Below, piece after piece: positions 1,792 to 62,129 of a DNA stretch of 64,000 nt. The stretch's first letter is position 1, and each line of letters opens with the position of its first letter. The position numbers and the translations under genes were made by a program. Under the pieces are notes generated by a model. The model was not told the origin of the DNA. It made no database searches and saw only the letters and a list, made by a program, of their open reading frames with translations. The stretch is from a virus. Location of the stretch: the IMG/VR virus record IMGVR_UViG_3300033148_008025, positions 32,001-96,000 of that record; one strand, given 5' to 3'.

Positions 1792-3027
1792 ATGAACCAT
1801 TTCCTATCTGGCTTCACCGATGAATTGGTGAAGATCGCAGTAGACAGAGAGTCTGGAAAAGGAAACGGGCTTGGCCTCCTGGAGGCCGGGATGGTGGCAT
1901 CGACAATTGCTCCATTTATGGGGCTCATCGGAGAAGAGAAGATTCTCCACGACCCACATGTGCAGAAAAGCATCATGAGGTTTACCTCACTGGAATCCCT
2001 CGAGCGTCACGCAAGGCCTGGAGATATTGTCCTGATGAGCGGGCCCAGAGATCCTACCAGGCCTGTTACCACCGCAATATCCGGAACAGACTGGTCTCAT
2101 GCACAGCCGGTCGTTGGCGTTCGAGACGGAAAGGCCGTAACCCTCAGCGCAGGTCGATTCAACAGAAGAGATGTGAAGGTAAAAACTCGTGCAGATTTCA
2201 TGAAGATGGCTCCAACGCTGGCCAAAGATATGAAGTCATGGGGATATACCGATGCAGTAATTCTTCGTCCAAAAAACAAGATGAGCAATACAGACTTAAA
2301 GAAGTTTGTTGACGAGGTCGTCGATCGGTCGCGTATGCCGTGGGATGCAAAGAAAGCAGTTAGCGGGGTTGCTAAAGATCTGTTTATTCCAAAGCGAATG
2401 GTTTCAGAAGGGGCTCTTAAAAAAATAGAAGGTCAGACGATGATTCGCTATGGGAACATTGTAGATCCTGTTTCCGGCAAGAAGGTTCGAGTCCCAATGA
2501 CGTGCAAGGGAAACACCTGTTCGGGCTTAAGTGCACAGGCAGCTAGAATTGCTGGCGGTGGAGCAATCCTAGGCAGCAAGCTCCCAGCAGATATATTGCC
2601 AGCAGACTTCGTTCGTTCGAAACAGTATCGTCCAGTAGGCGCAGTGATTAACAAAAGCAAGCTTCCAGTAAAAATCCTTCCATACCTAACCCGAGCGGGA
2701 GTGGGTACCGCTGCCGCCGGAGGCATCTACGCAGCCCATGAGCGACCGGAACTGTTGGCAGCAGGAGTAGGAGCAGCGGGAGGATCTGCGCTCCAGGGGG
2801 CGTTGACAAGGCGGATAGGAAAGGCAATGGGGCTATCCTACGGACAGACAAGTCGTAAGATTCCAAATCTGATGAGATCAGTGCAAAAAACAGTGTCCTC
2901 ACCCACGACCATTGGCAGGGTAAGCCCAATCTTAAAATATCTAGCAATGGCAACTCCGATGAGAGTTCTTGGCGGGCTAGCTGCCCTCAAGGTGGGCCGG
3001 GTAGCGCTTGGCCGAGAAGGAGAATAG
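1792..3027 (+). CDS. permuted NlpC/P60 (YiiX/YebB-like) papain-fold protein with DELxKxA leader
   Basis: PGDIVL...WSHA (His), MPWD, CSGL (Cys), ILPADF in the permuted His-before-Cys order; N-terminus MNHFLSGFTDELVKIA. Confidence 0.7.
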   Translation: MNHFLSGFTDELVKIAVDRESGKGNGLGLLEAGMVASTIAPFMGLIGEEKILHDPHVQKSIMRFTSLESLERHARPGDIVLMSGPRDPTRPVTTAISGTDWSHAQPVVGVRDGKAVTLSAGRFNRRDVKVKTRADFMKMAPTLAKDMKSWGYTDAVILRPKNKMSNTDLKKFVDEVVDRSRMPWDAKKAVSGVAKDLFIPKRMVSEGALKKIEGQTMIRYGNIVDPVSGKKVRVPMTCKGNTCSGLSAQAARIAGGGAILGSKLPADILPADFVRSKQYRPVGAVINKSKLPVKILPYLTRAGVGTAAAGGIYAAHERPELLAAGVGAAGGSALQGALTRRIGKAMGLSYGQTSRKIPNLMRSVQKTVSSPTTIGRVSPILKYLAMATPMRVLGGLAALKVGRVALGREGE

Positions 3028-3029
3028 GC

Positions 3030-5129
3030 ATGAACGGCATCCTTACAGGCTTCATAGATGAACTGACAAAGGTATCATCCCAAAAAGAGAAAGAAGCGCC
3101 ACTATACGAAGCAATCATGCGTCCAGGCGAACATGGTCGCGTTAGTATGAAACCGGCTGGTGCAGCACTCGGTGGAACAGTTGGAGCCCTGCTTGGAGAT
3201 TTTGCATCAAAGCGTGCAAGACTTGGCAGCAAATCCAGTATTGGAACAAAGCTTATTCGCGGTAGTGGTATTGCAGGCTTACTGGCTGGAGCCTTGCTTG
3301 CGCCAGGCGGAAAGAAGTCAAAGAAACGATCCGTCGACCTGATTCCGTCGAATCGCGCAGCAAGGGAGATTGCTGCAAAGTCAAAATCACACGAAAAGAA
3401 AGCTGCAGCAAAAACCCACCTAACGCCAGACTCATCCAACATTAACGGTTTCAGCTATGACCCCAGAGCTAAGCAGCTGACCGTGACGTTCAAGGGCGGA
3501 TCGACGTACAGATACAGGGGTGTACCGCAAGCCACCTTTCGCTCACTCAGGCGAAACAAGAGCGCCGGCAAGACACTTAACCGTCTCGTCAAAGCCAGGG
3601 ACTACGAGTACGAGAAGATTGCCAAGAAGAAAAAGCAGAAGTCCTACAAGTGCAAGTTCTGTAAGGACCAAGCTACCAAGGGCGTCATATGGGCCGAAGG
3701 CCGCGGCATCGTTCCCTGCTGTGATAAGCATCTTGGCAAAGGCAAATCTTCTATTGATGATCCGAAAGACATCGACCTGATTCGGGACCTGACAAAGCAG
3801 GCTGGATCTAAATTCACCACCTTCCTTCGGACAGCTCCAGAAGAAAAGCTTTTGGCAGCCCTCGAGAATGTTGTCGGATCTGCCAGGCCAACCTATTACA
3901 AGTCCCTCGATATTACGAAGTTCATGAACTATCTCAGGGGTGGCGGTGACAAGTTTGCTCCGAGCATTTCTTCGATGAAGAGAGATGAATTGGTTAAGGC
4001 CGTTCGCCAGCGACTCGCCGCAGGGTTTCCGAAACAGAGGCTTCGGCATACGAAGGATGGCGATGTTGAATTTGGGCGTAGTCTGAAGGAACGTGCGGGA
4101 TCTAAGATGATCCGAGTTAGTCATGGTGGAAGCGCATCCGAGCTTGAGTCGATCATCAAGTATGGTCCCAACGCGGCGGTTCCTGTTGTCCCCGGTGCGG
4201 CTGGAAAAAAAGAAGTTGTCGGACTTTTTGTTCATAAACCCTCCGATGTTTTAGCGGAACGTCTTCCAGGATACGCCAAGAGGCGGGTGGCCTACGCCGG
4301 AGGAAAACCCGCAGTTCTTAGTTTTGATATCCCAGAGAGATTGATTTCTGAGGGGGGGCGAATTGGGGGTGGTGAACATATAGTTCCGGCAAGCCTTTGG
4401 CGGTACGCGAAGAACACAAAGATCACCAAAGTAGGAGGCTCCTTGCTTGAAAAGACTTCTTCAGATGCACAGCGAGCATTCTACGCTTCAACCAGCATCT
4501 CCCCCTACTACGCCAAAAGGCAGCGCGACAAGCGCAAGCAGCAGGAGATCAATCGCCTGTTGAAGAAAGCAGGCTTCTTGCGCGAGCGCGTCCGCGAAGG
4601 TAACTCGAGTGATCTTATTGGTCGCATGACGAAAAAACGCCGTCAAATCGAGAAGATAGCCGGTGCGTGCGTGAAGACTCTTACCTGGGGAGGACTCACG
4701 ATGAAGTTTGAGTACCTCAAGGATGACATCAGGTCTGGTACCGGGGAAGGCGGAAAGAAGTGGTCTCGTAAAATGAAGGACTGCTATGGATACATTCCCA
4801 ACACCTACGGCAAGGGCGCAGATGGGGAAGCCATTGACGTCTACTTCCAGCCCGATCCGACTGACGGCCCGGTCTTCAAGATCCGTCAGCTAAAAAAAGA
4901 GGGTGGCTATGACGAGGACAAGTTTATGGTCGGGTATGGAACATCCAAGGCGGCAAAAGCAGCCTTCGACAGGAACATGCCAGCATGGGCCTTTGGTGAT
5001 ATCACCAGTCTATCAATGAAAAGTTTTCGAACACTTGTAGGCCAAAGCGGCAGCAAGATTCGTGTACCATCAGACAGCAACGCCGAGCGCGAGCGGGTTC
5101 GCCGGGCCATGGAAAGAAAATCAGCATGA
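3030..5129 (+). CDS. polyvalent multidomain protein: leader, Gly-rich helices, KTSC domain, Zn finger, ART-like domain, InPase-like domain
   Basis: KTSC: SSNINGFSYD...LTVTFKGGSTYRYRGVP...SAG. Zn finger: CKFC...CCDKH. ART-like: VSHGGS...IIKYG...GLFV...GYA...EHIV. InPase-like: W...M...YGYIPNT...DGEAIDVY...YDEDKFMVGY. Confidence 0.75.
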   Translation: MNGILTGFIDELTKVSSQKEKEAPLYEAIMRPGEHGRVSMKPAGAALGGTVGALLGDFASKRARLGSKSSIGTKLIRGSGIAGLLAGALLAPGGKKSKKRSVDLIPSNRAAREIAAKSKSHEKKAAAKTHLTPDSSNINGFSYDPRAKQLTVTFKGGSTYRYRGVPQATFRSLRRNKSAGKTLNRLVKARDYEYEKIAKKKKQKSYKCKFCKDQATKGVIWAEGRGIVPCCDKHLGKGKSSIDDPKDIDLIRDLTKQAGSKFTTFLRTAPEEKLLAALENVVGSARPTYYKSLDITKFMNYLRGGGDKFAPSISSMKRDELVKAVRQRLAAGFPKQRLRHTKDGDVEFGRSLKERAGSKMIRVSHGGSASELESIIKYGPNAAVPVVPGAAGKKEVVGLFVHKPSDVLAERLPGYAKRRVAYAGGKPAVLSFDIPERLISEGGRIGGGEHIVPASLWRYAKNTKITKVGGSLLEKTSSDAQRAFYASTSISPYYAKRQRDKRKQQEINRLLKKAGFLRERVREGNSSDLIGRMTKKRRQIEKIAGACVKTLTWGGLTMKFEYLKDDIRSGTGEGGKKWSRKMKDCYGYIPNTYGKGADGEAIDVYFQPDPTDGPVFKIRQLKKEGGYDEDKFMVGYGTSKAAKAAFDRNMPAWAFGDITSLSMKSFRTLVGQSGSKIRVPSDSNAERERVRRAMERKSA

Positions 5130-5806
5130 GTTACAATTTTTTGAACGGTTTCGTCGACGAGCTCACAAAGACCGCGGGTCCAACCGACCTGGCCAAGCCT
5201 CCCGGGCAGACCATGGAGGTGAAGATTCCTAAGCCCCCCAAGCCACTCCAGGCGCCCAAGCCGGCTACCATGGAGAGCAAACCTGCCGCCGTTCTTCCCA
5301 AGACTGCAGGTGTGAAAGACATGCTTGGCACCATGGGCTCCGCAGTCAAGAAGATGGTGACTAGCGATAAGGCTGTTCGTGCCAAGGTGAAAGCTGGGGA
5401 CTTGGCAGCCAAGGCAAAGTTTCACGGAGCCAAGGCCAAAGGAAGAGGGCAAGACCTTGCCGGAAAAGCTAAGGCATATGCTTCGACAAAGGGCCACCAG
5501 TGGAATGCACTTTCTCCTGCAGAGAAGAAGCGCTACATGGCTATCGCCGGTGCCGGAACGGCCGCCGGTGTTGCTGCTGGGGCCGGTGCATCGAAGCTTG
5601 CTGGCGAAGATAAGGCTGGCGCAATGATCAAGGAAGTGCTTGAAAACGCCAAAGGGAAAAATCGTCCTGAGTCCAAGTCCGGCGATTCCGTTGGGGGCGA
5701 GTACGGTGCGGGTGGGGGTCTTTCAAACTTTGAAGGCAAGACTGCTCCAAAGTTCAACAAGAAGTACAATCCCACCGACATGCCTCAGGCGTTCGGAAAG
5801 CGATAG
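5126..5806 (+). CDS. Lys/Ala-rich putative internal head protein with DELxKxA leader
   Basis: MSYNFLNGFVDELTKTAG; basic Lys/Ala-rich region; Gly/Ala hydrophobic helix; ATGA overlap. Confidence 0.6.
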   Translation: MSYNFLNGFVDELTKTAGPTDLAKPPGQTMEVKIPKPPKPLQAPKPATMESKPAAVLPKTAGVKDMLGTMGSAVKKMVTSDKAVRAKVKAGDLAAKAKFHGAKAKGRGQDLAGKAKAYASTKGHQWNALSPAEKKRYMAIAGAGTAAGVAAGAGASKLAGEDKAGAMIKEVLENAKGKNRPESKSGDSVGGEYGAGGGLSNFEGKTAPKFNKKYNPTDMPQAFGKR

Positions 5807-5811
5807 CACTT

Positions 5812-6438: not shown

Positions 6439-6440
6439 CT

Positions 6441-6488
6441 AAAAAAAGACCCATCTTCGCAGAGGTTCCACGCAGTGCGAAGAGGGTC
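6441..6488 (-). terminator. Rho-independent terminator of the - strand operon
   Basis: Stem GACCC-TCTTCGCA / TGCGAAGA-GGGTC followed by T7 on the - strand, between convergent genes. Confidence 0.7.
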
Positions 6489-6511
6489 AAAGCTGACATC
6501 ACTGCCAGCTA

Positions 6512-7426: not shown

Positions 7427-7448
7427 AGTAAACTCCTGTGTGTTTTGT

Positions 7449-7537: not shown

Positions 7538-7566
7538 GCCAAGGTCTAAAATAAATCTGAGTGAAC

Positions 7567-7604: not shown

Positions 7605-7610
7605 GAGTCC

Positions 7611-7914: not shown

Positions 7915-7936
7915 CGATAGGCTGCTGTGCCTGGCT

Positions 7937-15875: not shown

Positions 15876-16253
15876 ATGACTTCGCACCTTATGATTGGTT
15901 TTACTGATGAGCTTGTGAAGACTGCCGGAAAGACTTCTCTTTTTACGAAAGCACTAAGGCTTGCAGCGAAGACCGAAAAAGGGAAAACCAAAGCCGGCAA
16001 AAAGGTTATTTCCCGTTTAGCCAAAACGCAATCGAAGACGAAGCACGCCCTCAAAGACCCGGAGTATCGGAAAAGGATTGCCGCTGGCGCTACCCTTGGA
16101 GCTGGAACGGGCGCAGCCACGGCAGTGGCTGGCGGAGGTGATGACTCTGTACTAAAAAGGGCTCTCAAAGGAGCTGGAACGGGTGCGGTGGGTGGAACCA
16201 TCACCGGAGCTGCATTCCCGGGCTGGTTCGCTAGGTCTAATCGCCACCTCTAG
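15876..16253 (+). CDS. small basic protein with DELxKxA leader and Gly-zipper helices
   Basis: MTSHLMIGFTDELVKTAG; Lys-rich middle; two Gly/Ala hydrophobic segments. Confidence 0.7.
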   Translation: MTSHLMIGFTDELVKTAGKTSLFTKALRLAAKTEKGKTKAGKKVISRLAKTQSKTKHALKDPEYRKRIAAGATLGAGTGAATAVAGGGDDSVLKRALKGAGTGAVGGTITGAAFPGWFARSNRHL

Positions 16254-34132: not shown

Positions 34133-36196
34133 ATGGCACTCCCAGTAAAAGAATTCATCATTGAAAGGCTTCTTGAGTTTGACTCATCCTTTGACACGGG
34201 GTCCGGTGTCCCGACAACCGGGCTACTCATTGAGCCGCTTTCTGTGATTTTGCAACCAGTTATCGATGAGCTATCTGTAGTTCAGGCGAGTTCCTCGATC
34301 CTCACAATCCTTGAGTCTTCTGATCCCGACTCTTTCCCGGAAGACATTGTTGACGGACTGGCATCAAATGCATTTGTCGACAGAAACCCAGGGGAGATTG
34401 GCTCCGATGTCATGCGAATTCGTTTTTTTGAGCCGCAGCAATTTGAGGCGCAACAAGGGGTACTCATCTTCCGCGGCCCAAGCGGTCAACGGTTTACAAA
34501 TTCCGAATCTTTCGTAGTGACCTCATCGGAGATGAGCCTGAACAAAGACGGGAGTCTCTACTTTGCAGACATTCCGATTGTCTCCCTCGAGGAGGGGGAG
34601 GACTTCAATGTCAGTTCTGGTGCAATCACTTCCATGGAGGCCGAACCAAGTGGAGTTGCAAACGTAACAAACCTGTTTGGAATATTAGACGGAAGAGATA
34701 GGGAAACAAACACGGAATTAATCGATCGTATCAAGGTCGCAGTAACCGTTAGGGCACTTGTTACCGGGCGCGGAATCATCGTCACCCTCACCGAGAATTT
34801 CTCCACAATTGAAGAGATTACTCCCGTAGGATTTGGCGACCCTGAGATGATGAGGGACATTGTTTACAACGTTCACATCGGTGGGAATTCCGACGTCTAC
34901 GTGAAAACATCGAATTTCACATCAGGGTTCAAAGATTTTTTCGGAATAGAAGTTGATACTTCTAGGCAGAAATCCGGTTACGGAACAATCTCTCTCCCGC
35001 TCGACTCCGTTGGATACTTCCTTGGGAACTCCGGAATTGACAGGACGAACATCGCGCCAACTGTAAGGGCTATCGATGGGCTTGTTGCCTACGCAGAAAC
35101 CACAGACTACATACTAGACGACACATCTGGAACTATTTTCAGAGTTCCAGCCGGGTCGATTTTTCATCGTGAGGGAATATCTGGAGTTGTAACCGACACC
35201 AAGACATTGACTCAGGTCGGTGAGTTTGCAAGTGCACGGAGAGGTATGATCTTGACTATTGATACCCCGGCAACGGTGTCGGGGAGATACACGGTCAGGG
35301 AGTCTCCAGATGCTGACACTGTCATCATCTACGGGGAGTTCTCAGTGGGATCGGAGACTGGCGTAAACTGGAGTCTTGATGACAACCTTACCGTGTCCTA
35401 CGAGTACAATCCTATCTCTATCGACATAGCTGAAGCTGCAAGGTCTGATGACCGTGAAATATTCACCATTACAGATATCCCGCTTATGTATGTTGAATCC
35501 GTAGAAGTACTTGATCCGCTGTCCGGAGAGCAGACAGGCGTAACCCTGGAACCGCTGGGTGGGTTTGGTGCAGGCGGGTTTGGAGTTGGGGGATTCGGGG
35601 TTGGCAGCGGAGCGGATTTCAAGCTTGTTGTTGTAGACCCAACCCTTCGCCACTCGTCGGAGGAAAGCAACTACATCGAGTTTGACGCTAGCTATGCTGG
35701 CTATGCACTTAGGTTGAACTACTTTTATGCTTCTGCGATTCCGCCGATCCAGGCATTCATGGATGACAGGAACAATCAGAGTCAAACAGCATCGCTACTT
35801 GCTCGCCACCACATCCCAGTGTTTGTTGATACTCAGAAGACGATCAGCTACGACATCTCCGCATCGTCCGAAGCTACTGCGCTGAGCACGGAAGAGATGG
35901 TCTCGCTCATCAGCGACTATATTAACGACATCGACCAGGACGGAGACCTTGAAATCTCCGACATCATTGATGTCATGTATGACAGCGGTGCAACCCGGGT
36001 TGACCTCGGTGCCATACAGGAAATGCGCGGGGAAATTCACAACCATGATGGCTCAATTGAATACACACTTCCTGACAGCACGGGAAGTATGGTTATTCCA
36101 GATAACGACATCGAAGACCCAACTGACAAACCACTGTCCCCGCGCATTGCTAGATTTCGTTCTAGAACAATATCCCTTCAAAGGAACGTTGTATGA
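34133..36196 (+). CDS. baseplate J / gp6-like wedge protein
   Basis: VANVTN...GRDRETNTELIDRI motif. Confidence 0.75.
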   Translation: MALPVKEFIIERLLEFDSSFDTGSGVPTTGLLIEPLSVILQPVIDELSVVQASSSILTILESSDPDSFPEDIVDGLASNAFVDRNPGEIGSDVMRIRFFEPQQFEAQQGVLIFRGPSGQRFTNSESFVVTSSEMSLNKDGSLYFADIPIVSLEEGEDFNVSSGAITSMEAEPSGVANVTNLFGILDGRDRETNTELIDRIKVAVTVRALVTGRGIIVTLTENFSTIEEITPVGFGDPEMMRDIVYNVHIGGNSDVYVKTSNFTSGFKDFFGIEVDTSRQKSGYGTISLPLDSVGYFLGNSGIDRTNIAPTVRAIDGLVAYAETTDYILDDTSGTIFRVPAGSIFHREGISGVVTDTKTLTQVGEFASARRGMILTIDTPATVSGRYTVRESPDADTVIIYGEFSVGSETGVNWSLDDNLTVSYEYNPISIDIAEAARSDDREIFTITDIPLMYVESVEVLDPLSGEQTGVTLEPLGGFGAGGFGVGGFGVGSGADFKLVVVDPTLRHSSEESNYIEFDASYAGYALRLNYFYASAIPPIQAFMDDRNNQSQTASLLARHHIPVFVDTQKTISYDISASSEATALSTEEMVSLISDYINDIDQDGDLEISDIIDVMYDSGATRVDLGAIQEMRGEIHNHDGSIEYTLPDSTGSMVIPDNDIEDPTDKPLSPRIARFRSRTISLQRNVV

Positions 36197-36495
36197 ATAT
36201 GGTTAGCTTTGTTGATGAACTGATAAGGGTTGGAGTCAGCAAGGCTCTAGCAAAACATGCTTCCTTCGTTGGAGCAGAGCCGCACGAAGGGCTCGTTGGG
36301 AGCAGTGCGTATGCTGAAGACAACGTTCTTGTTCCAAGCGACGTAGCAACTAGGATTCCTAGAACAGCAAGCCTTCCATCAAGCATTGCAGTTGGTAGGT
36401 TGGGTGAAATTAGTCCCGCAAATGATCCGATAGATAACAGAACAGAGGGGGGACGACGTGAGTGTCTCTTCTGCCTTCCTTTGGCGATTTCTTGA
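36193..36495 (+). CDS. small protein with variant DELxKxA leader
   Basis: MNMVSFVDELIRVG; ATGA overlap upstream and 38-nt overlap downstream. Confidence 0.5.
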   Translation: MNMVSFVDELIRVGVSKALAKHASFVGAEPHEGLVGSSAYAEDNVLVPSDVATRIPRTASLPSSIAVGRLGEISPANDPIDNRTEGGRRECLFCLPLAIS

Positions 36496-47558: not shown

Positions 47559-48710
47559 ATGACAATTGCCGCAGCCGTTCTCGATTTTTATGACGATAGC
47601 TCGAAAGAGTTGATGACTAAGATTTCATCACCGCAAGGATTTGGTGATACACAGGTCAACGTCCTCACCCCTGAAGAAATGAGTCGTCTCCCCGACTCTG
47701 ACTTCGGACTTGTGATCTTCACGAAGAGGGCTTCCGTACTTAAAAAGTACCCCGTGAACGATCCTGGAAATGCCTGGCTATCAGCTCAGTATTTCGATCA
47801 GACTCATACCAAGCTAGCATTCCCTGCAAGATTTGTTGCAGCAAAGTTCATCAAGCAAGCCTGCGATGCATACGGAGTTCCAGCATCTCCACGAGTGGAA
47901 GCCTACGCAGCTCGTGTGGAACCAGGAGAAGCACAGGAAAACGTTTTTTCCGAAGGATCAGAAAGTCGATGGATGCTTCGAAAGCTTGCCAACCAGGAGT
48001 TCCTGGAAAAACAAGCATCCGCGACCGAGGTCAATGCACTTGTCCACATGCCCGATGAACACTTTGCACTGGTAGTACAGACCGGCGACGGGAGCGTTAT
48101 TCGAAAATACGCAATGCCCGATGGCGGTCACGTCCTTAGAGCAGCTGAATACTTCGACAAGTACGCAATGGACCTAGCCCCTTCCCATCGACATCGCTTT
48201 GCGACATCGGTTCAGAATCGCGCAGAGGAATTAGACGTAGACATATCAGGGAACACGATGCTTTGTAAGTGGGCTGGGGAAACATGGAGTCGCCACGTTC
48301 ACGCACACCTTGAGCAGCGAAAGTCCCTACTTCCTCATCCTGAGCATGAAGGGGCTCGCGGAATATTGGACAAGCTCGCAGCATCCATAGCAGAGACTAC
48401 GCCATCAGATATGGCCTCGGCACTTGAAACCTTTGACGAAGCTACTGGCCTGTCAAAGTATCATGACCGAGGGCTTGCAGATCCGTACTCGAGCACAATG
48501 AACAAAGTTGCTTCATCGTGGTCAGCGGAAGTCGATGGGCAAACGATCACAGAAGCAGACCTGAGGAAAGTTGCATCGACGAAGAAGCTAGCTGGATACC
48601 TTGGGGATACTTTCACAAAGCAGTTCGCGAAAAATCCTGTCGAAATATTCGAATCACTACCAAGTCCCGAGAAATCCATGATCAAGCAGGTCATTAACGG
48701 CGAGGCGTAG
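47559..48710 (+). CDS. putative head morphogenesis protein with a duplicated domain
   Basis: LPDSDFGLV...KKYPVND and MPDEHFALV...RKYAMPD repeats (DUF6582-like from memory); several K-x-A/S sites; AGGAG SD. Confidence 0.55.
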   Translation: MTIAAAVLDFYDDSSKELMTKISSPQGFGDTQVNVLTPEEMSRLPDSDFGLVIFTKRASVLKKYPVNDPGNAWLSAQYFDQTHTKLAFPARFVAAKFIKQACDAYGVPASPRVEAYAARVEPGEAQENVFSEGSESRWMLRKLANQEFLEKQASATEVNALVHMPDEHFALVVQTGDGSVIRKYAMPDGGHVLRAAEYFDKYAMDLAPSHRHRFATSVQNRAEELDVDISGNTMLCKWAGETWSRHVHAHLEQRKSLLPHPEHEGARGILDKLAASIAETTPSDMASALETFDEATGLSKYHDRGLADPYSSTMNKVASSWSAEVDGQTITEADLRKVASTKKLAGYLGDTFTKQFAKNPVEIFESLPSPEKSMIKQVINGEA

Positions 48711-49746: not shown

Positions 49747-49946
49747 TGAACAGCAAGGAAAGTGAAGAGTTTGAAAGTTCCGCCAGGGCTATTGCTGAAG
49801 AAATTTCCGCATTTAGGCGAGAATGGATCGATAGCGCAGCGGGCGACATACTCGACGAGATGGAAGACTTAGAAAAAGAAGGCTTCGACCCTGCACGAGG
49901 CAGGGGGCGAGGCCCCAGCTGGATGAACGGAGAACAACATGAGTAA
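49743..49946 (+). CDS. small acidic protein
   Basis: Overlaps both neighbours. Confidence 0.5.
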   Translation: MMNSKESEEFESSARAIAEEISAFRREWIDSAAGDILDEMEDLEKEGFDPARGRGRGPSWMNGEQHE

Positions 49947-51093
49947 ACATTTTGCATATTTGATGGATGACGACAGTTCAAACTTCTTCCAGAAGCTAGC
50001 CTGCGAAGAGGCTGACAGAGACCTTCTTCCAGCAACAGCGCCATTGCCGCTGGTGGAAAAAATTGCTGCAGCCAAGGGCATTGACAAGGTTGCAGCCCGC
50101 GTTGATCGCGACATTCAGATTGTTAAAACCGCGGGAGTATCGGGACATAACTTTGGTTCCATTCGTCGTGGGCTAAATTACATCGACGGCCTGGTTCAGC
50201 GTGAACAGTTCAGCGTTGAGTCGGCTGGGACAGTTTTTGACAAGGTTGCATCCGCTGCTATCGAGCATGACCTATCCATTATCGAGCATGACCTTCGAGG
50301 TATGGTTGGCCACGAATACAATGAGTGGGTCGACAACACCGTCGCCGACATAGGACTAGACCTGGTTAAGGCCGCCGCACTCGACAAGGAAGCTCTTATC
50401 GGAGTTGTGCGGGCATTCAAGGCGACGAAAGGACTTAGCGGAGCCTCGCGGGCAAGGGCAGTTGCAAAGGCTCCAGGACAGTCATTCAAGCAGTGGCGAA
50501 CGGAAGCAGCAGTAGCCAAGCGCGGCAAGGCTGCCAAAAAGCTAAACAGGGCAACGAGGAAGGCTCAAACATCGGTTCTTTCTAGCGCAAAAGAAATGAG
50601 GACAGCAAGGAAGATCAAAGACCCGGCTATTCAGCGAAGTGTCATGCCAGGTATCAAGACGCAAGCTGCAAAAGATGCCGCTAAACATCAAAAGCGAATA
50701 CAAAAAGCATCCGACGCTCATTCAAAGCGACAAGCCAAAGTTCAACAGCGTGAAGCCATTGAGTCTGGCCGTAAGCCTGCCGCTAAGCCGAAAGACACAA
50801 AGCAGCTCTCAGACAAGATAGAGACGGCCCAAGGCAAGATGGAGACCGGGCGTAGCCAGGCAAAGGACAAAGCTGCCGATGCCGCAAAAGGAGGAAAGCC
50901 CTCGAAAGCGGAACCTCCGAAAACAGAGCCTGGGAAGACGAAGGCAAACGCGGGCGGCGAAAAAGAGACAGGAATGCTCGATTCACTGGGCAAGCTGAGG
51001 GATAAGGGGTGGAAGAACCTCAGCCCTGCTGAAAAAAACAAGGTTCTTCAGGCAGGAGCAGGAGCCTATGTTGCCAAAGAAACGCTAACCTAG
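49939..51093 (+). CDS. putative internal head protein with many K-x-A sites and a very basic C-terminal half
   Basis: FQKLA, VEKIA, IDKVA, IVKTAG, FDKVAS, LDKEA, then a Lys/Ala/Arg-rich region. Confidence 0.6.
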   Translation: MSKHFAYLMDDDSSNFFQKLACEEADRDLLPATAPLPLVEKIAAAKGIDKVAARVDRDIQIVKTAGVSGHNFGSIRRGLNYIDGLVQREQFSVESAGTVFDKVASAAIEHDLSIIEHDLRGMVGHEYNEWVDNTVADIGLDLVKAAALDKEALIGVVRAFKATKGLSGASRARAVAKAPGQSFKQWRTEAAVAKRGKAAKKLNRATRKAQTSVLSSAKEMRTARKIKDPAIQRSVMPGIKTQAAKDAAKHQKRIQKASDAHSKRQAKVQQREAIESGRKPAAKPKDTKQLSDKIETAQGKMETGRSQAKDKAADAAKGGKPSKAEPPKTEPGKTKANAGGEKETGMLDSLGKLRDKGWKNLSPAEKNKVLQAGAGAYVAKETLT

Positions 51094-51114: not shown

Positions 51115-53157
51115 ATGGCAAGCACGCAATCAGGATCTTTGGATCGACGTCGGGGAACGGTATATCCATCACCGTTCTTTGATATCGCCCAGACATATAT
51201 GCCGCCAACCGTGAAAGAACTTTTCCGGTGGTGTGCATATTTCTTTTACAAAGATCCAATGATCGGCTCGGTGGTCACGAAGATCGCCGAGTACCCTGTT
51301 ACGGACTTTGTCTACAACGCAAGCCAAAAACATGTTCGCGACGGGTGGAAAGAAATCCTCGAAGACACGCTGAACATGAAACCGTTCCTCATAGAGGTCG
51401 GGCTAGACTACTTCGCATACGGCAATGCATTCATCAGTATCAACCTCCCATTTACACGATGGATCCAGTGTCCCAGTTGTTCGAGTCTTTACAAACTGGA
51501 AGATGAATCCTTCAAGTTCTCGTTCAAAAATTTCGAGTTTCACTTCGAGTGCAAGGACTGTAAATCCAACGTAGTTGGGAAGATCGTCGACAATCCAATA
51601 AGAGATCGCACTGGAATCAATTTCGTCCGGTGGGACCCCAAGAACATAGACATTCACTACAATCCTATTACTGGAAAGTCTAAGTACCGGTACCAGATTC
51701 CAAACAAGATCAAGAAGGCAATCCACAAGGGTAGCCGTGAAATACTGGTCGACATCCCAGAGATTTTCTTCATCGCGCTCAAGAAGAAAAGGGACATACA
51801 GCTATCAGACCAGAACCTTTTTCACTTCAAGCGTCCAACGCTCGCAGAGCAAGACATGGGATGGGGGAAGCCACTAATCATCCATTCGATGGGAAGGATG
51901 TTCTACCTCTACGTTCTCAGAAGGGCTCAAGAGGCTATTGCCTTGCAACGCATAATGCCAATGGAATTCATCTTCCCGCAGGCAAATGCTCAGCAAGACC
52001 CATATCAGCACGTAAATTTATCCTCTTGGCAGGGAAACATAGAGAACGAAATTCACAAATGGAGGCAGGACCCCAATTACATCTCAATCGTTTCTGTTCC
52101 GCTCGGCTTTGAACGTCTTGGCGGTGATGGCAGAGCGCTTCTTCTTGGGCCTGAGATTGAAGTCACGAACAAGGAGATCACGGGTGGAATGGGAGTTCCG
52201 TTAGAATTCGTATTCGGAGGGCTGTCTTGGTCCGGATCCAGTGTTTCGCTACGAACACTGGAAAACCACTTCCTGATGTATCGCCGACTTCTTCTTCGAT
52301 TTGTAAACTGGTCAAAAAATCGAATCAGGCTGTACCTTGGACTTCCCGATATCGACATTGGATTCACAGAATTCAAGATGGCTGATGACGTTCAGCGAAA
52401 ACAAATTGTCATCCAGCTTAACGCTGCCAATAAAATCTCAGACCATACCATGCTCACAGAACTTGGATTTGATTACGACGATGAGCAGGAGATGATAGAG
52501 AAAGAGACCGATCAGCGAAACCAGATTCAGGCGATGACGATGAAGGCTCAGGCAGAAGCACAGGGTGAGTCATCCATCGTCTCCGCAAAGTATCAGGCAA
52601 GAGCGCAGGAAACTTTCCAGGAAGCACAGGGGGCGATCTCTGGCGGGCAACCTGGGCAAACAGAGCAAGCGCAGGCGCAGGTATCAGAAGGCCAGGAGCA
52701 GAACCCTGAAGAGGGCGGAGGGCAGCCTCGGCAACAACAAGGCGAACAACAACAGCCTCAGGACGGGCAACAGCAGATAACGCAAATCCCAACTTCTGCA
52801 CAAGGAATCGGAAAGTCCGAGGATCAGTCCATGGCTGCACAAGCCGCTGCACAGGGTGCTGCACAGGGCCAGGCTGCCGTCGAGGGACAGGCTGGCACTC
52901 AAGCTGGCGGGACTTCTACGGACGTCAAAGACGCCGCGGGGCAGGCAAAGGAGTGGGCCAACATAATCGCCAAGAAGCCACCAGAGGAGCAGGCAAAGAT
53001 TCTCGCAGAAATGGACAGAAAGTTGCCAGCCATGACAAGGCTGGTGAAACAACTTCTTGCGCAAATGGCTCCCGGAGAGACCTCGGGAGATGCCGCAAAG
53101 AAAATGAAGCCCCTTCCACAGAAGGCCCCACCCAGGCGTAACCAGGGGGTCATCTAA
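51115..53157 (+). CDS. portal protein with Zn-ribbon insertion and Gln-rich tail
   Basis: DPMIGSVV.KIAEYP; DYFAYGNAF; FHFK...WGKP; I.GGMGVP.EF..G..SWSGS; CPSC...CKDC. Confidence 0.7.
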   Translation: MASTQSGSLDRRRGTVYPSPFFDIAQTYMPPTVKELFRWCAYFFYKDPMIGSVVTKIAEYPVTDFVYNASQKHVRDGWKEILEDTLNMKPFLIEVGLDYFAYGNAFISINLPFTRWIQCPSCSSLYKLEDESFKFSFKNFEFHFECKDCKSNVVGKIVDNPIRDRTGINFVRWDPKNIDIHYNPITGKSKYRYQIPNKIKKAIHKGSREILVDIPEIFFIALKKKRDIQLSDQNLFHFKRPTLAEQDMGWGKPLIIHSMGRMFYLYVLRRAQEAIALQRIMPMEFIFPQANAQQDPYQHVNLSSWQGNIENEIHKWRQDPNYISIVSVPLGFERLGGDGRALLLGPEIEVTNKEITGGMGVPLEFVFGGLSWSGSSVSLRTLENHFLMYRRLLLRFVNWSKNRIRLYLGLPDIDIGFTEFKMADDVQRKQIVIQLNAANKISDHTMLTELGFDYDDEQEMIEKETDQRNQIQAMTMKAQAEAQGESSIVSAKYQARAQETFQEAQGAISGGQPGQTEQAQAQVSEGQEQNPEEGGGQPRQQQGEQQQPQDGQQQITQIPTSAQGIGKSEDQSMAAQAAAQGAAQGQAAVEGQAGTQAGGTSTDVKDAAGQAKEWANIIAKKPPEEQAKILAEMDRKLPAMTRLVKQLLAQMAPGETSGDAAKKMKPLPQKAPPRRNQGVI

Positions 53158-58500: not shown

Positions 58501-61500
58501 CCAGAACCAACTCTTGCATACAAGAAGTTCGAAGCCTACATGAAGGGCGCCGGTGTCAACATGGAACGACGTGGGTCAAAGATGGTGCTTGGGCCAATGA
58601 CCGACGAGATGACAGACAAGATCAGTAATGGGAAAGTTCGAGATGCAACATTCCTTCGAGCGAAAGATCTGAAGTACGAGCGCGGCGGACTGATGGATCC
58701 AAACATATTCGGCCAAGGCGACAAGTGGGGACACATCGAACTTGCCGAATCCATTCCAAATCCAGTCTTTGAAAAACCAATCAAAGTACTCACCGGCATA
58801 GATGACAGAACATTCAAGGCAGTGGTCAAAGGCGAAAGATTCTTAGACCCTAAAACCAATGAGTGGAATGAAAAGAAAGGGCTTACTGGTGGCGAAGCCA
58901 TCTCTCATTTACTGAAGCAGGTTGACGTAGATAAAGAAATTGCCATCTGGACAGACAAAGCAAAAGGAGCGGCCTACAAAAAAAGGAAGGACGGGACTCG
59001 AACGGAGGACGAACTGAACACTGCCAATAAAAGGCTTCGCTATCTTCATGCCCTCAAGAAACTAAACATGTCCCCGGACAAGGCTTACATCCAAAAGAAA
59101 ATTCCAGTTGTCCCAACGCAGTTTAGGAAGATCATCGAAATGGAGGGAGGCAACCTCTCCAACGCCGGACTCAACTCTCTGTACCGAGATGTTGGTTTGA
59201 TTAGCGACCAGCTCAAGTGGCAGAAAACCGTCGACTACATGCCCGAGTCCGTAAAGGCGGAGCTTAGGGAGAATCTGTACGGAAGTGTGAAGGCCGTAGC
59301 TGGACTCGGAGAGCAGGTGAGGCGAGGAGGAAGTCAGAAAGCTGACAAGCGTCCAAGGGGCATCATCGAACAACTAAAAGGAAAGAAAGCAAAAGAAGGG
59401 TTCTTTCAGCGGAAGGTTTTGCGCAGAACGCAGAACCTCGTCGGGAGAGGAACGATCATTCCAGATCCGAAGCTCGGGGTTGACGAGGTCGGCCTCCCGA
59501 AAGAAATGTCCTGGACACTGTTCGAGAAGTTTGTAACTCGACGCCTAGTCAATAGTGGGTACAAACCGAATGATGCAATCGAGGCAGTAAACAATCGAAC
59601 CCCTGCAGCACTATCTGCCCTGCAAGCGGAGATGGAAAGCAGGCCGGTAATGCTCAACAGGGCACCGTCACTCCATAAGTTCTCTATCCAATCGTTCAAA
59701 CCAAGAATGGTCGATGGAAAAGCGATCAAGATCCCTCCACTCATTGTCGGAGGCTTCAACGCCGACTTCGATGGAGACGCAATGACTGTGCACGTTCCAG
59801 TACTCAGCGACTCAGTGGCCGAGGCTAAGAAGATGCTCCCATCTAGGAACCTGTACAGTCCCGGAACTGGCGACATCATGATCAAACCCCAGAATGAAGC
59901 CGCCCTAGGGCTGTATCAGATGTCAATCGATCCAAAGCTCAAGGGGAAGATCTTAGAAGAACTTCCCGAGAAGACCAGAGCCAAATTCGAAAACCGTCCA
60001 CTCGATAAGAAGGGGCTTGGAGATCTGATGAAGAGCCTCGCAATCGAAAGTCCGGATGGGCATGGTGCGGTTGTCGACAAGCTCAAGCTTATGGGTGACG
60101 ACCACACATACAAGACTGGATTCACAGTCAGCCTGAAAGACTTGTCCCCGGTTCTTCCTGAGAGGAATGCAATATTCGCAAGAACGAAAAAAGACCTAGC
60201 GGGAATTGATACTAAAACCAGGAAAGGAAGAGAGGAAGCATCTGCTTTAATTTCCGCCGCAGACAAAGAACTGGAAGCCGTCTTAGCCAGTCGCCTCGAT
60301 GAGCAAGGAAACAGTTTTCGACTAATGGTGAGATCTGGCGCTCGAGGGAACATGCAGCAGCTCAAGCAGATCCTATCTGCTCCGTTTGCCGTTCCAGACC
60401 ATAGGGGGCAAGTGCTGGCAGAACCGATTACAACATCCTTTGCCGAAGGGCTGCCATTCTCGGATTACTGGAACACGCTATATGGGGCGAGGGCTGTTGC
60501 AACGGATAAGCAACTCCAAACCCAATTGCCGGGGGCATTCAACAAAGACATCATGGCCTCTTCCGTTACCAACGTGATCTCCGGCGCGGATTGTGGGGTT
60601 AATCGAGGAGTGAAGATTTCACTCAAGAGTAAAATCGATGACGCAGAAGATCGTTACCTGGCCAAGGACATAAGTGTTGGCGGAACAGTTGTTGCCAGAG
60701 CGGGAACGCTTATGAGTACTGGACTGCTCAACACGCTGCGAGACCGAAAAGTCGACAACGTGGAAGTTCGCTCTCCACTCACCTGTAATAAGCCGAAGGG
60801 TACATGCGCAAAATGCTTTGGACTCAACGAGAGTGGAAATCTATCTCAGATTGGGGACAACATTGGAGCTACCGCCGGCCAGGCTCTGTCTGAACCATTG
60901 ACCCAGATGACACTGAGAACCTTCCACCAGGGAGGTGTTGCTGGAGGGCGAGGTGTTGTGAGCGGATACGACAAAATCGACAAGCTCTTTAAGATGCCAA
61001 AGATCAAAAGAGGAAAAGCCACCCTTGCCAAAAGTGATGGAGTCATTGAAAGCGTAAAAAATGCACCTGGTCGAACAGGGAAAAACATCAAAATCAGTGG
61101 CTATAGAAAAACTCATTTTGTTGAAAACGATCTGTGGAACAGCAACAAAGCTCGCGTTGGGAAGAATGTTTTCAAGGGGGACATCCTCTCCGACGGACTT
61201 GTTCAGCCACAGGAACTCGTCGAATTAAAAGGAATGCAGAGTGCACAAGAATACCTTGTCGATGAGATTCAAGATGCCTACGGATCTCAGGGAGTGAAGC
61301 TGAAAAGAAAGACTGTAGAAACAGTAATCAGGGCAGTTGCGAACACCACAAAGATCCACGACGCAGGCGACAGCAACTTCCTCATCGGCGATGTTGCACC
61401 ATGGACGGTTGTGGAGGATTACAACCGGAGATCTCTAGGTAAAAAAGGACTCGATGAGATTATCGGACTTGCCCTCAAAGAGGACGTTCCTGGCATCAGA

Positions 61501-61800
61501 AAGAATACGATTATCTCCGAGAAAATTCGAAGCACGCTGGAGCGCATGGGCAAATCGGAAGTTGAGGTGGGACCGCGTCCAATCGGGCACGAGCCGTTCC
61601 TGAAGGGGATTGAGCAGATTCCAATGTTGCGCAAAGACTGGATGAGCCAGATGGGATACCGGAACATAGAAAAGGCGATCACTGAGGGTGCTGCTACTCT
61701 TTCAGAGTCCGACATCCACGGGTATGCGCCGGTCCCAGCATTTGCCTACGGAGCCGAATTTGGGCTACCTGGCGGAGGAAAAGAGGAGGGAAGTTACTAA
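55570..61800 (+). CDS. rpoBC: fused beta-beta' multisubunit-type DNA-directed RNA polymerase (2076 aa)
   Basis: Beta motifs: GSFIIDG...SQLRRKPG, VHPSQMGFIDPIHTPD, GYNFEDGI, GDKLTNRHGGKG, LNPHGVVSRIN. Beta' motifs: GHIELA, LNRAPSLH, NADFDGD (59758-59778), SGARG, CNKPKGTCAKCFG, EPLTQMTLRTFH. No stop at the junction near 58560-58590. Confidence 0.97.
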   Translation: MPTMESFDYQDQFNRVKKDVIASVTKALDIQSAGANRKMVVHKVWIDDNKNPADWESQKQAVRKDKTWGVPVYATVDLIDRKTGAVLSSEERIKVATLPRPTNLGSFIIDGKHYQVQSQLRRKPGVYTVQKRNKQLKTEVNIQKRPFDIDMDPETQIFKMKKAGSDQAFALYPILSRLGISDVAMARRWGKDVLEANKSIKPKNAEVSVRKAALFFTGSNFDSAEDAANAIKEYFQDTEIKPEVTKSTLGKAYTKVTPDLLLRGSEELLRANRGEREADDRQALEFKKVLGMSDLMRERMLQSDGQLAGAMSKVRGGISRKINNRKKPVSEISKLIKTNEFTPFFNSFFSQSSLSNITDQTNPITMLNGTAKITVLGEGGVMDATRVRGEERAVHPSQMGFIDPIHTPDSGNIGLVMNLPLGVTKNGENLQTKVIDPITKKIRSITPSEARNMVVAFPDQYSKKTGKFLGDKVRAFVNGQFENVSPDRVDVVLASPKQAFSIASNTIPFLPAAQGVRAQMATKMLEQAIPLSEREAPLVQVGLGRSTIEKSIGEGFSVQALDDGIIEKVEDGKITIKTKDGKVEQKLYTNIPLNKKAFLTSTSTVKEGDAVKKGDVIADSNFTKDGQLALGTNLRAAYIPYKGYNFEDGIVITESAAKKLTSEHMNEFASSIEKGMEVSLKDYMAWKGGGLDLSQRRKLDKDGVIKIGETVHKGDALWVGTRENKYDPDYIAAKKMNPNQDPKKAYREEWTKDGLGEVVDVVKSNGKIKVYVKSKEAAVIGDKLTNRHGGKGIVTKIIPDGEAPYTADGRAVDILLNPHGVVSRINPSQILETAAAKIADLEGKPYVVENFSGENYTESVTKAVKKAGISDTETLYDPHTKKALGDVLVGPQYTLKLSKQATSQFSARSEGKYDADLAPLKGGEDGAKALDMLTFYSMLSHGARSNIREMATYKATENKEFWRWVERGASSGMITPPPEPTLAYKKFEAYMKGAGVNMERRGSKMVLGPMTDEMTDKISNGKVRDATFLRAKDLKYERGGLMDPNIFGQGDKWGHIELAESIPNPVFEKPIKVLTGIDDRTFKAVVKGERFLDPKTNEWNEKKGLTGGEAISHLLKQVDVDKEIAIWTDKAKGAAYKKRKDGTRTEDELNTANKRLRYLHALKKLNMSPDKAYIQKKIPVVPTQFRKIIEMEGGNLSNAGLNSLYRDVGLISDQLKWQKTVDYMPESVKAELRENLYGSVKAVAGLGEQVRRGGSQKADKRPRGIIEQLKGKKAKEGFFQRKVLRRTQNLVGRGTIIPDPKLGVDEVGLPKEMSWTLFEKFVTRRLVNSGYKPNDAIEAVNNRTPAALSALQAEMESRPVMLNRAPSLHKFSIQSFKPRMVDGKAIKIPPLIVGGFNADFDGDAMTVHVPVLSDSVAEAKKMLPSRNLYSPGTGDIMIKPQNEAALGLYQMSIDPKLKGKILEELPEKTRAKFENRPLDKKGLGDLMKSLAIESPDGHGAVVDKLKLMGDDHTYKTGFTVSLKDLSPVLPERNAIFARTKKDLAGIDTKTRKGREEASALISAADKELEAVLASRLDEQGNSFRLMVRSGARGNMQQLKQILSAPFAVPDHRGQVLAEPITTSFAEGLPFSDYWNTLYGARAVATDKQLQTQLPGAFNKDIMASSVTNVISGADCGVNRGVKISLKSKIDDAEDRYLAKDISVGGTVVARAGTLMSTGLLNTLRDRKVDNVEVRSPLTCNKPKGTCAKCFGLNESGNLSQIGDNIGATAGQALSEPLTQMTLRTFHQGGVAGGRGVVSGYDKIDKLFKMPKIKRGKATLAKSDGVIESVKNAPGRTGKNIKISGYRKTHFVENDLWNSNKARVGKNVFKGDILSDGLVQPQELVELKGMQSAQEYLVDEIQDAYGSQGVKLKRKTVETVIRAVANTTKIHDAGDSNFLIGDVAPWTVVEDYNRRSLGKKGLDEIIGLALKEDVPGIRKNTIISEKIRSTLERMGKSEVEVGPRPIGHEPFLKGIEQIPMLRKDWMSQMGYRNIEKAITEGAATLSESDIHGYAPVPAFAYGAEFGLPGGGKEEGSY

Positions 61801-62129
61801 TGGACGAAATAAGAAAACTGGCTGAGAGTTCACTGCAGGAGGCTGTGAGCATAGCTAGGCTCGCGGGGGGCGCCGGGATGAGGATTAAGCTTGGAGCTGC
61901 CCTACCCAAGCTCCCGAGTGCTGCGCAGCAGCTTAGGGCTACTGCGAGCTCCTCTTGGAGGATGGGAGCCTCGCCGCCAAAGCCGAAGTCTATGCGTCCA
62001 AACGGACGCATAGGAGATCCGGCTAGGACCAGGTCGCCAGCCAAGCCTCCAAGCAAGAAGGCATTTTACCGAGACATGGTTCTCGGAATGGACCCGAGTT
62101 ATGGCAACCGTATGGCTGTCAAAGGCTAA
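61800..62129 (+). CDS. small basic protein with DEIRKLA leader, coupled to the RNAP gene
   Basis: TAATG overlap with the RNAP stop; Pro/Arg/Lys-rich. Confidence 0.55.
   Translation: MDEIRKLAESSLQEAVSIARLAGGAGMRIKLGAALPKLPSAAQQLRATASSSWRMGASPPKPKSMRPNGRIGDPARTRSPAKPPSKKAFYRDMVLGMDPSYGNRMAVKG

What the first reader, a model, noticed from the sequence alone, without database searches (positions are those of the whole stretch)
1792..62129. Shared N-terminal leader (G/S)F-x-DE[LI]-x-K-x-A on unrelated proteins: a candidate capsid-targeting or protease-cleavage code
Seen: SGFTDELVKIA (1792), TGFIDELTKVS (3030), NGFVDELTKTA (5126), IGFTDELVKTA (15876), VSFVDELIRVG (36193) and MDEIRKLA (61800). These genes are scattered over 60 kb and their downstream sequences differ. 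Shorter h-x-K-x-A/S sites cluster in the head-operon proteins 47559 and 49939. Several members then share a basic segment plus Gly/Ala hydrophobic helices. Known: T4 internal proteins carry a short capsid-targeting leader removed by gp21 after Glu, and the phiKZ head protease cleaves S/A/G-x-E. Inferred: an analogous system with a K-x-A specificity that loads diverse cargo into the head for injection. An alternative reading is a double-glycine-like export leader (ELxKxAG).
Basis: partly seen in the sequence, partly recalled or inferred. Interest (0 to 1): 0.85.

Follow-up and report, generated by a model that had tools for sequence, protein, structure and literature searches.

The report
Shared head-loading tag on phage proteins
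An uncultured large phage and most of its relatives start many unrelated, mostly very basic proteins with the same ~16-residue peptide, which copies a conserved piece of the phage's own scaffold protein and ends in the likely cut site (Lys-x-Ala) of its T4-type head protease; it most likely works as a 'load into the head, then clip off' label, but no packaging or cutting has been measured.

Summary
A profile of the peptide M-x(3-7)-(G/S)-F-x-D-E-L-x-K-x-(A/S/G) finds 5 members in the window and 11 in the 121-kb contig, cleanly separated from noise (strict regex: 5 hits against 0.04 expected). All lie 3-8 residues after the start codon. The cargo parts share no similarity, and 9 of 11 have pI >= 10. 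The sixth listed case (61800) is not a profile member; 36193 is an outlier.

The K-x-A clustering in 47559 and 49939 is also real (z 8.2 and 4.4).

The tag equals a conserved module inside the scaffold-like protein next to the protease.

Best reading: a T4-CTS-like loading tag with a different cleavage rule. It is a new variant of a known kind, and everything is inferred from sequence.

This scan had already noted the same tag on this genome and on other DNA. Cultured relatives (Arash, Vibrio D69) share the K-x-A code but lack the tag.

The parts
1792..1839 (+). Leader (16 aa, ends K-I-A) of gene 1792-3027 (411 aa, pI 10.3)
   Evidence: Regex and profile hit, 23.0 bits. The cargo has an atlas lead to a permuted papain-like amidase, Peptidase_C92/NlpC-P60-like; score 0.79, so a lead only.
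3030..3077 (+). Leader (16 aa, ends K-V-S) of gene 3030-5129 (699 aa polyvalent protein: Gly-zipper, KTSC, Zn-ribbon-like module, variable module, InPase)
   Evidence: Profile 21.6 bits. Pfam KTSC 9.5e-14 and InPase 1.3e-29. 12 of 15 homologues keep a recognisable leader while the middle module is swapped. In the AF2 model the leader is a helix (residues 3-21), and 6 of 8 K-x-A/S sites lie at domain borders or in linkers.
5126..5176 (+). Leader (17 aa, ends K-T-A) of gene 5126-5806 (226 aa, basic, Pro/Ala/Lys-rich)
   Evidence: Profile 25.7 bits; cargo pI 10.1.
15876..15926 (+). Leader (17 aa, ends K-T-A) of gene 15876-16253 (125 aa, basic segment plus Gly/Ala zipper)
   Evidence: Profile 26.2 bits; cargo pI 11.2, 5 GxxxG-type motifs.
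36193..36234 (+). Divergent leader (ends R-V-G) of ORF 36193-36495 (100 aa, acidic) between two baseplate genes; outlier member
   Evidence: Profile 24.0 bits; cargo pI 5.6. It lies between homologues of Arash gp13 and gp14 and overlaps the next gene in another frame.
61800..61823 (+). M-D-E-I-R-K-L-A start of ORF 61800-62129; doubtful, truncated leader-like start
   Evidence: Matches only the loose D-E-[LIV]-x-[KR]-x-[AGS] pattern and is not found by the profile. It lies directly after the RNA polymerase gene.
47559..48710 (+). 383-aa protein densely marked with h-x-K-x-A/S sites; candidate prohead core or scaffold-like substrate
   Evidence: 8 sites against 0.9 expected, z 8.2; site contexts. 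No Pfam or PHROG family. Atlas: virus-only clusters of unnamed proteins.
49939..51093 (+). 384-aa protein with an acidic, K-x-A-rich N-half and a very basic C-half; candidate processed internal head protein
   Evidence: 7 sites against 1.8 expected, z 4.4. It lies immediately upstream of the portal gene.
51115..53157 (+). Portal protein (context: anchors the head-related block in the window)
   Evidence: tblastn to the annotated Arash portal, 29% identity, E 1e-64, and to Vibrio phage D69, 3e-71; weak PHROG portal hit.

Best explanation
The peptide is a capsid-targeting tag of the T4 CTS kind, with a different sequence and cutting rule. Shown at sequence level: it is a short amphipathic helix placed at the very N-terminus of many unrelated, mostly strongly basic proteins. 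It is a copy of a conserved module of the acidic scaffold-like protein encoded next to the head protease; in that protein the module is bracketed by two K-x-A sites. Inferred steps: (1) during prohead assembly the helix docks the tagged protein into the scaffolding core, using the contact the scaffold module uses. The receptor is unknown. (2) The gp21-fold head protease, itself fused to a helical, K-x-A-rich C-terminal region, cuts after Lys-x-Ala. P3 Lys, P1 Ala and a small P1' residue are inferred. This removes the tag, trims the capsid protein's N-terminal ~27 residues, frees the protease from its tail and chops the acidic scaffold proteins into fragments that leave. (3) The basic cargo stays with the DNA and is delivered to the host with it. 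The cargo includes enzymes (a papain-like amidase candidate; a KTSC/InPase polyvalent protein that may be cut into modules) and Gly-zipper membrane segments.
Against: No experiment exists: no tag-bearing phage is cultured. The closest cultured relatives (Arash, Vibrio D69/D148/D181) lack the tag. The Arash proteome of 252 proteins 'virion' and gives no peptide-level data. Arash has no homologues of the window's cargo. The receptor of the tag is unknown. P1' after the tag's K-x-A is variable (G, V, S, I, L, F). Three of the 11 copies end in V-G (two in K-V-G, one in R-V-G) and two in K-x-S rather than K-x-A. One member sits in the baseplate operon with acidic cargo. In the polyvalent cargo 2 of 8 sites lie inside helices or domains, and the linker association is not significant because 47% of that model is low-confidence. 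Pfam Peptidase_S77 does not match the protease. Two complete related genomes have no copy at all.
Confidence: 0.6

Rival explanations
1. The peptide is an assembly or docking helix that brings proteins into the virion but is not removed. The K-x-A at its end belongs to the binding surface, and the K-x-A enrichment in head proteins reflects a structural repeat, not cleavage.
For: The invariant residues of the scaffold module go well beyond K-x-A (G, R, A, R, F, D, E), as expected of a binding surface. P1' is variable and some tags end in V-G or x-S. No cleavage has been measured anywhere in the family.
Against: K-x-A sits where prohead proteases are known to cut: the capsid protein's N-terminal arm (46 of 47 orthologues, with site turnover), the disordered linker behind the protease domain (27 of 27) and repeatedly in acidic scaffold-like proteins. 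A purely structural repeat would not be expected to keep these positions.
Confidence: 0.15
2. The tag addresses proteins to another place than the head interior, for example to the inner membrane or to a tail/baseplate-associated ejection complex, using the amphipathic helix and the Gly-zipper segments.
For: Several cargos have Gly/Ala zipper, membrane-like segments. One member lies in the baseplate operon. Three members form an operon far from the head genes (1792-5806).
Against: The same module is embedded in acidic scaffold-like proteins between the protease and capsid genes across the whole family. Four further members lie in that head module. The helix is too short and too polar for a membrane anchor.
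Confidence: 0.1
3. The shared N-terminus is mainly a recombination or cassette boundary, or a remnant of common descent, with no addressing function of its own.
For: Modules are swapped behind a constant leader in homologues of the polyvalent cargo. Several small basic Gly-rich cargos could be fast-diverged paralogues.
Against: Conservation is at residue level, not nucleotide level, with synonymous codons differing between copies. The core is kept at 30% protease identity on dozens of different proteins. It ends in the family's enriched head motif.
Confidence: 0.07
4. Double-glycine-type export leader, cut by a C39 peptidase ABC transporter.
For: Loose resemblance of E-L-x-K-x-A-G to the E-L-x-x-I-x-G-G leader consensus (from general knowledge); 4 of 11 copies continue with Gly.
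Against: No Gly-Gly or Gly-Ala pair at a fixed distance. No Peptidase_C39 on the contig, while the same search finds it in 7 of 14 control genomes. The cargos reach 699 aa and include cytoplasmic-type enzymes. The peptide also lies inside scaffold proteins.
Confidence: 0.03

Closest known systems
Phage T4 capsid targeting sequence (CTS) of internal proteins IPI-III and Alt, removed by prohead protease gp21 (Mullaney and Black 1996, as cited in PMC10052503; review PMC3012670)
   Same: A short N-terminal peptide shared by otherwise unrelated, often basic proteins. It ends in the cleavage motif of the phage's own gp21-fold protease. The cargo set is diverse and fast-evolving. The protease also processes the capsid protein's N-terminus, itself and the scaffold.
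   Different: No sequence similarity to the T4 tag. It is about 16 residues long rather than about 10. The inferred cut is after Lys-x-Ala rather than (L/I)-x-Glu. The tag is demonstrably a copy of a module inside the scaffold-like protein. It is used on 4-11 or more proteins per genome, including enzymes up to 699 aa. Nothing here has been tested experimentally.
Giant-phage head proteolysis (phiKZ gp175; SPN3US gp245, A-x-E sites; PMC10052503)
   Same: A gp21-type protease removes N-terminal propeptides of 20-254 residues from many head and ejection proteins, cuts long propeptides at several sites, and auto-removes a C-terminal piece of itself.
   Different: Those propeptides are not one shared portable tag, and P1 is Glu. 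Here P1 is inferred to be Ala with Lys at P3.
Herpesvirus assemblin with its scaffold fusion (for example HCMV or HSV-1 protease; PDB 1njt, 8bq1)
Polyvalent proteins of phages and conjugative elements (KTSC, InPase and swapped enzyme modules; Pfam PF13619, PF18823)
   Same: The 3030-5129 cargo has KTSC and InPase ends and a swappable middle module (GNAT or cupin in homologues), as in polyvalent proteins delivered with the DNA.
   Different: Here the protein starts with the shared tag, and K-x-A sites sit at the module borders, suggesting processing into separate pieces. This is not a described feature of that class as far as I know.

Membership tests
T4-type capsid targeting sequence system | One short N-terminal peptide shared by otherwise unrelated proteins of one phage | tested here: met
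   11 profile members on the contig, none similar beyond the tag.
T4-type capsid targeting sequence system | The peptide ends in the cleavage motif of the phage's own prohead protease | tested here: inconclusive
   The tag ends in K-x-A/S, the top-ranked enriched motif of head-module proteins, and the motif is conserved at the capsid N-terminus and in the protease linker. That this motif is the cut site is inferred, not measured.
T4-type capsid targeting sequence system | A gp21-type prohead protease is encoded by the phage | tested here: met
T4-type capsid targeting sequence system | Sequence relationship to the T4 tag and an (L/I)-x-E cut site | tested here: not met
   The consensus (G/S)-F-x-D-E-L-x-K-x-A has no Glu at the end. 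Enrichment is for K-x-A; no x-E pattern is among the top patterns.
T4-type capsid targeting sequence system | Tagged proteins are found inside proheads or virions, the tag is absent from the mature form, and the tag suffices to load a foreign protein | not testable with these tools
   No cultured tag-bearing phage. The Arash proteome has no tag and no peptide-level data.
Prohead protease of the gp21/assemblin fold (MEROPS S77-like) | Match to Pfam Peptidase_S77 (PF03420) | tested here: not met
   No match at E<=1 on the contig. The 739-member family has no Pfam domain, so it is a separate sequence family with the same fold.
Prohead protease of the gp21/assemblin fold (MEROPS S77-like) | Conserved catalytic Ser and His | tested here: inconclusive
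   H105 and S157 (in D-V-S-M-G) are invariant in 27 sequences, but I did not obtain a residue-level superposition on the gp21 triad.
Double-glycine (C39) export leader | Gly-Gly or Gly-Ala immediately before the cut, with a cognate C39 peptidase/ABC transporter | tested here: not met
   No such pair in the 11 leaders. PF03412 is absent from the contig, which is about 67% complete, while it is found in 7 of 14 control genomes.
Polyvalent proteins (cargo 3030-5129 only) | KTSC and InPase domains combined with swappable enzyme modules | tested here: met
   Pfam KTSC 9.5e-14 and InPase 1.3e-29. Homologues carry GNAT or cupin modules between the same ends.

The most novel reading that the evidence does not exclude
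Cargo enters the head by scaffold mimicry. The tag is a portable copy of the scaffold protein's own conserved docking module, so any protein given this ~16-residue helix is co-assembled into the prohead core and then released by a gp21-fold protease that has switched to a Lys-x-Ala (P1 Ala, assemblin-like) rule. If so, the whole injected-protein repertoire of a large clade of uncultured ~170-210-kb phages (500 related loci in the viral-contig collection; a 739-member protease family in the protein database) can be read from sequence alone, and the tag plus protease would be a ready-made protein-loading system.
Probability: 0.4. Interest if true: 0.75.

Novelty: new variant of a known kind. Interest (0 to 1): 0.6.

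Why it matters
T4's capsid-targeting sequence is the textbook case of protein loading into a phage head and is used to engineer T4 particles, but few other portable tags are known. This system appears to be family-wide, it has a different and simple predicted cutting rule, and its origin in the scaffold protein is visible in the sequences. If confirmed, three things would follow. The proteins these phages inject (candidate anti-defence and takeover factors, including enzymes and membrane-active segments) could be listed from sequence alone. The binding partner of such tags, still undefined even for T4, could be approached through the conserved scaffold module. There would also be a second, orthogonal tag and protease pair for loading proteins into capsids. 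The shared K-x-A code can already be tested in a cultured phage (Arash).

Tried and rejected
1. Arash virion proteomics (PMC10585845) as a test. Arash has no tag, and its list is very permissive at 116 of 252 proteins. The supplement holds only the annotation table, and Arash has no homologues of the window's cargo. Several abundant Arash virion proteins start M-x(1-4)-K-x-A (gp95, gp97, gp100, RNAP gp206), but 5 of 8 such proteins being in the list against a 46% base rate is not significant.

2. Complex prediction of protease domain + capsid protein + scaffold module gave 'no answer' (score 0.00, controls not run). This counts neither for nor against binding.

4. My first impression from the +/-10 kb neighbourhoods was that N-terminal tags are confined to close relatives. 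Genome-wide counts corrected this: distant relatives also have 4-9 copies, elsewhere in their genomes.

5. Phage G, whose protease gp19 is 34.5% identical. The open papers held give no cleavage sites, and the 2020 structure paper is not held. In the sequence, gp19 is K-x-A-enriched and some N-termini read M-K-R-L-I-x-K-x-A/S, but the capsid protein lacks the site.

6. Pfam S77 search of the contig gave no hit. PDB sequence search of the protease gave no hit.

7. The capsid-protein candidate named by position in the window (49939-51093) is not the capsid protein. The real one, an orthologue of Arash gp226, is at contig 120321-121214.

8. Linker test on the polyvalent cargo: 6 of 8 sites lie at borders, but the model is 47% low-confidence, so this is not significant.

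9. Whether 36193 is the frameshifted N-terminus of the next gene was left open.
Full report
**What the window is.** The window is positions 32001-96000 of a single 121,454-bp viral contig, estimated about 67% complete. Most of its proteins match no Pfam or PHROG family. By portal protein, the closest cultured relatives are Vibrio phages D69/D148/D181 and Salmonella phage Arash at about 30% identity, with Bacillus phage G more distant. A BLAST map against Arash places the large terminase at contig 100168-101946 and the major capsid protein at 120321-121214. It also matches a 605-aa protein at 115873-117690 to Arash gp222. The true head module therefore lies just beyond the window's right end.

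**Check of the observation.** The strict pattern F-x-D-E-[LI]-x-[KR]-x-[AGS] occurs five times in the six-frame translation of the window. All five are on the + strand and lie 5-8 residues after an ATG; shuffles give 0.04. A profile built from the leaders finds 11 ORFs on the contig at 14-28 bits, and the next hit is at 5.7 bits.

- The window members start at 1792, 3030, 5126, 15876 and 36193.
- The others start at contig 108303 (minus strand), 110598, 113626, 114925, 115189 and 118070.
- The copies use different synonymous codons, so the peptide is what is conserved, not an RNA or DNA signal.
- After removal of the tag the cargos show no pairwise similarity at E<0.01. Nine of 11 have pI>=10 against 10% of the other genes (p=2e-4), and most carry GxxxG-type Gly/Ala stretches.
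- 36193 is an outlier: it ends in R-V-G, has acidic cargo and sits in the baseplate operon.

**The protease.** The 605-aa protein gives a PHROG 'head maturation protease' hit over residues 72-202 (1.5e-6). It belongs to a family of 739 database proteins with no Pfam domain, several of them interrupted by inteins. An AlphaFold2 model built on 27 homologues has a confident N-domain covering residues 1-215.

- Foldseek's top three hits are all T4 gp21 (5JBL) at probability 1.0, and the next hit is at 0.08.
- H105 and S157 are invariant.
- Directly behind the domain, in a disordered linker, K226-x-A228 is invariant in 27 of 27 sequences. The helical C-terminal 390 residues carry 4-11 K-x-A in every homologue, against 1-3 in the domain.
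- Pfam Peptidase_S77 itself does not match. This is therefore a separate sequence family with the gp21 fold.

**K-x-A as the likely cleavage code.** Four tests support this reading.

- Localisation: on this contig the enrichment is confined to 47559, 49939, the polyvalent cargo 3030-5129 and the genes between 109645 and 119738. In Arash it is confined to gp220, gp223, gp225 and gp242, beside the protease and capsid genes.
- Unbiased ranking: K-x-A ranks first of all 400 X-x-Y patterns in 193 ORFs chosen only by their position between the protease and capsid genes of 37 relatives (830 against 394 expected). It also ranks first in Arash (36 against 14.4). The runners-up L-x-K, F-x-K and E-x-L are the flanks of the same extended motif.
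- The capsid protein: its only K-x-A lies at residues 25-27 and is conserved in Arash. Of 47 non-redundant orthologues, 46 have a K-x-A in residues 9-40, where the density in the rest of the protein predicts about 0.07. In one sub-clade the site has moved ~7 residues upstream instead of being lost.
- Site context: a hydrophobic residue (often F or L, often after an acidic one) two or three positions before the Lys, then K, then L/V/I/T/Q, then A, then mostly S, A or G.

These are the positions where gp21-type proteases are known to act: the capsid N-terminus, the protease's own tail and the scaffold (PMC10052503). No cut has been measured.

**Link between the tag and the scaffold.** Two acidic proteins of the head module (contig 114811-115179 and 117650-118411) contain the tag internally, preceded by A-G-R-I-M-A-R. 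In 80 related loci this internal copy sits in the gene just downstream of the protease, down to 30% protease identity. An alignment of 11 such segments, otherwise 27-40% identical, has an invariant K-x-A followed, 6 residues later, by an invariant G-R-x-x-A-R-x-F-x-D-E-x-x-K. The module is thus bracketed by two putative cut sites. The N-terminal tags on cargo are copies of its second half. In contig ORF 113113-113931 the tag is internal as well and is directly preceded by E-E-K-I-A.

**Breadth.** A back-translated pattern scan of the viral-contig collection, followed by genome-wide counts, shows the word F-x-D-E-L-x-K in multiple copies in related phages: 7 in a 48-kb fragment and 4-9 in eight large genomes. 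Two complete genomes have none, and every reversed-pattern control gives 0.

- Of 49 sites in eight further genomes, 32 have a Met within 12 residues upstream and 37 sit on basic cargo.
- Each lineage has its own extension upstream of a constant (A/G)-F-x-D-E-L-x-K-(I/L)-(A/S) core.
- Arash has no tag and D69 has one internal D-E-F-E-K-V-A.

So the K-x-A code is shared more widely than the tag.

**Cargo.**

- Gene 3030-5129 encodes a Gly-zipper segment, KTSC, a Zn-ribbon-like module, a variable module and InPase. PHROGs place the InPase part among minor head and virion proteins and DarB-like proteins.
- Twelve of its 15 homologues keep a recognisable leader, and one begins exactly where the basic mature part would start. 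The middle module is swapped for GNAT or cupin. Three K-x-A sites are conserved at module borders.
- In the AF2 model the leader is a helix (residues 3-21) running into disorder, and 6 of 8 sites lie at borders or in linkers. That is not significant, because 47% of the model is low-confidence.
- Gene 1792-3027 has a lead to a permuted papain-like amidase (lead only).
- The other cargos are small, basic and rich in Gly, Ala and Pro.
- The leaders have about twice the helical hydrophobic moment of their own shuffles.

**Interpretation.** The anatomy fits the T4 scheme: a tag that addresses diverse internal proteins to the scaffolding core and is removed by the prohead protease (PMC3012670). It differs in tag sequence and in the inferred specificity. 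P1 Ala with a small P1' residue recalls the Ala|Ser rule of the structurally related herpesvirus assemblins; that comparison rests on general knowledge and was not tested here.

The new element is that the tag is visibly derived from the scaffold's own conserved module, which suggests loading by scaffold mimicry. Shown: the tag, its distribution, the protease fold, the motif statistics and conservation, and the identity of the tag with the scaffold module. Inferred: docking, cutting, retention with the DNA and injection.

The rivals are an uncleaved docking helix, another destination, a recombination boundary and an export leader. They are weighed in their own sections. The export-leader reading is the weakest.

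**Relation to earlier notes of this scan.** The same tag and the K-x-A code had already been noted on this genome and on other uncultured phages. I used those notes as leads (Arash, protease beyond the window) and re-tested them here.

- the 400-pattern ranking;
- the capsid N-terminus statistics with site turnover;
- the scaffold-module alignment;
- the genome-wide counts showing that the tag is family-wide;
- the finding that cultured relatives share the code but not the tag.

**Limits.** There is no experimental evidence. The contig is incomplete.

Noticed in passing
window 55570-61800: A 2076-aa single ORF homologous (32% over 1489 residues) to Arash gp206, annotated RNA polymerase beta subunit and the most abundant protein in the Arash virion list. 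A phage multisubunit-type RNAP fused in one chain, probably virion-borne.
   Followed up: no
window 30757-31686: A sigma-factor-like protein (PHROG 7.8e-09; homologue of Arash gp10, which is in the Arash virion list) embedded among baseplate genes.
   Followed up: no
window 5812-6438: The gene right after the three-gene leader operon has an N-terminal transmembrane segment and sub-threshold matches to zincin metallopeptidases (Reprolysin/Astacin, E 0.04-0.09) around residues 122-155. It has no leader.
   Followed up: no
window 36193-36495 and 36458-38860: The divergent leader ORF overlaps the start of the next baseplate gene (Arash gp14 homologue) in another frame. A frameshift or assembly indel joining the two cannot be excluded.
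   Followed up: partly
contig 113113-113931 (L006:6113-6931): A 272-aa ORF carries the leader internally at residue 172, directly after E-E-K-I-A, followed by a basic Gly-zipper tail. The same layout recurs in relatives. It is either a polyprotein with the tag between two cut sites or a nested start.
   Followed up: partly
protease family (P0041, P0043, P0048, P0059, P0064, P0069, P0076, P0096): Several homologues of the head protease are about 1000 aa long and contain intein/homing-endonuclease domains (PF14528, PF14890, PF05203), that is, inteins inside a prohead protease gene.
   Followed up: no
Salmonella phage Arash (L002: gp95c, gp97c, gp100c; L003: gp206): Abundant virion proteins encoded outside the structural modules begin with a minimal M-x(1-4)-K-x-A. 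This is possibly a short form of the same processing signal, but the enrichment is not statistically significant with the published list.
   Followed up: partly
Bacillus phage G, L162 (gp13, gp17, gp19, gp38): The protease homologue gp19 is K-x-A-enriched (8 against 2.6 expected), and several neighbouring proteins begin M-K-R-L-I-x-K-x-(A/S). The capsid protein gp27 has no N-terminal K-x-A.
   Followed up: partly
window 45291-45920: A 209-aa protein with a carboxypeptidase-regulatory-like (CarboxypepD_reg) beta-sandwich domain (E 4.9e-07, just under Pfam's cut-off), downstream of a 1298-aa structural protein; probably a fibre or adhesin module.
   Followed up: no
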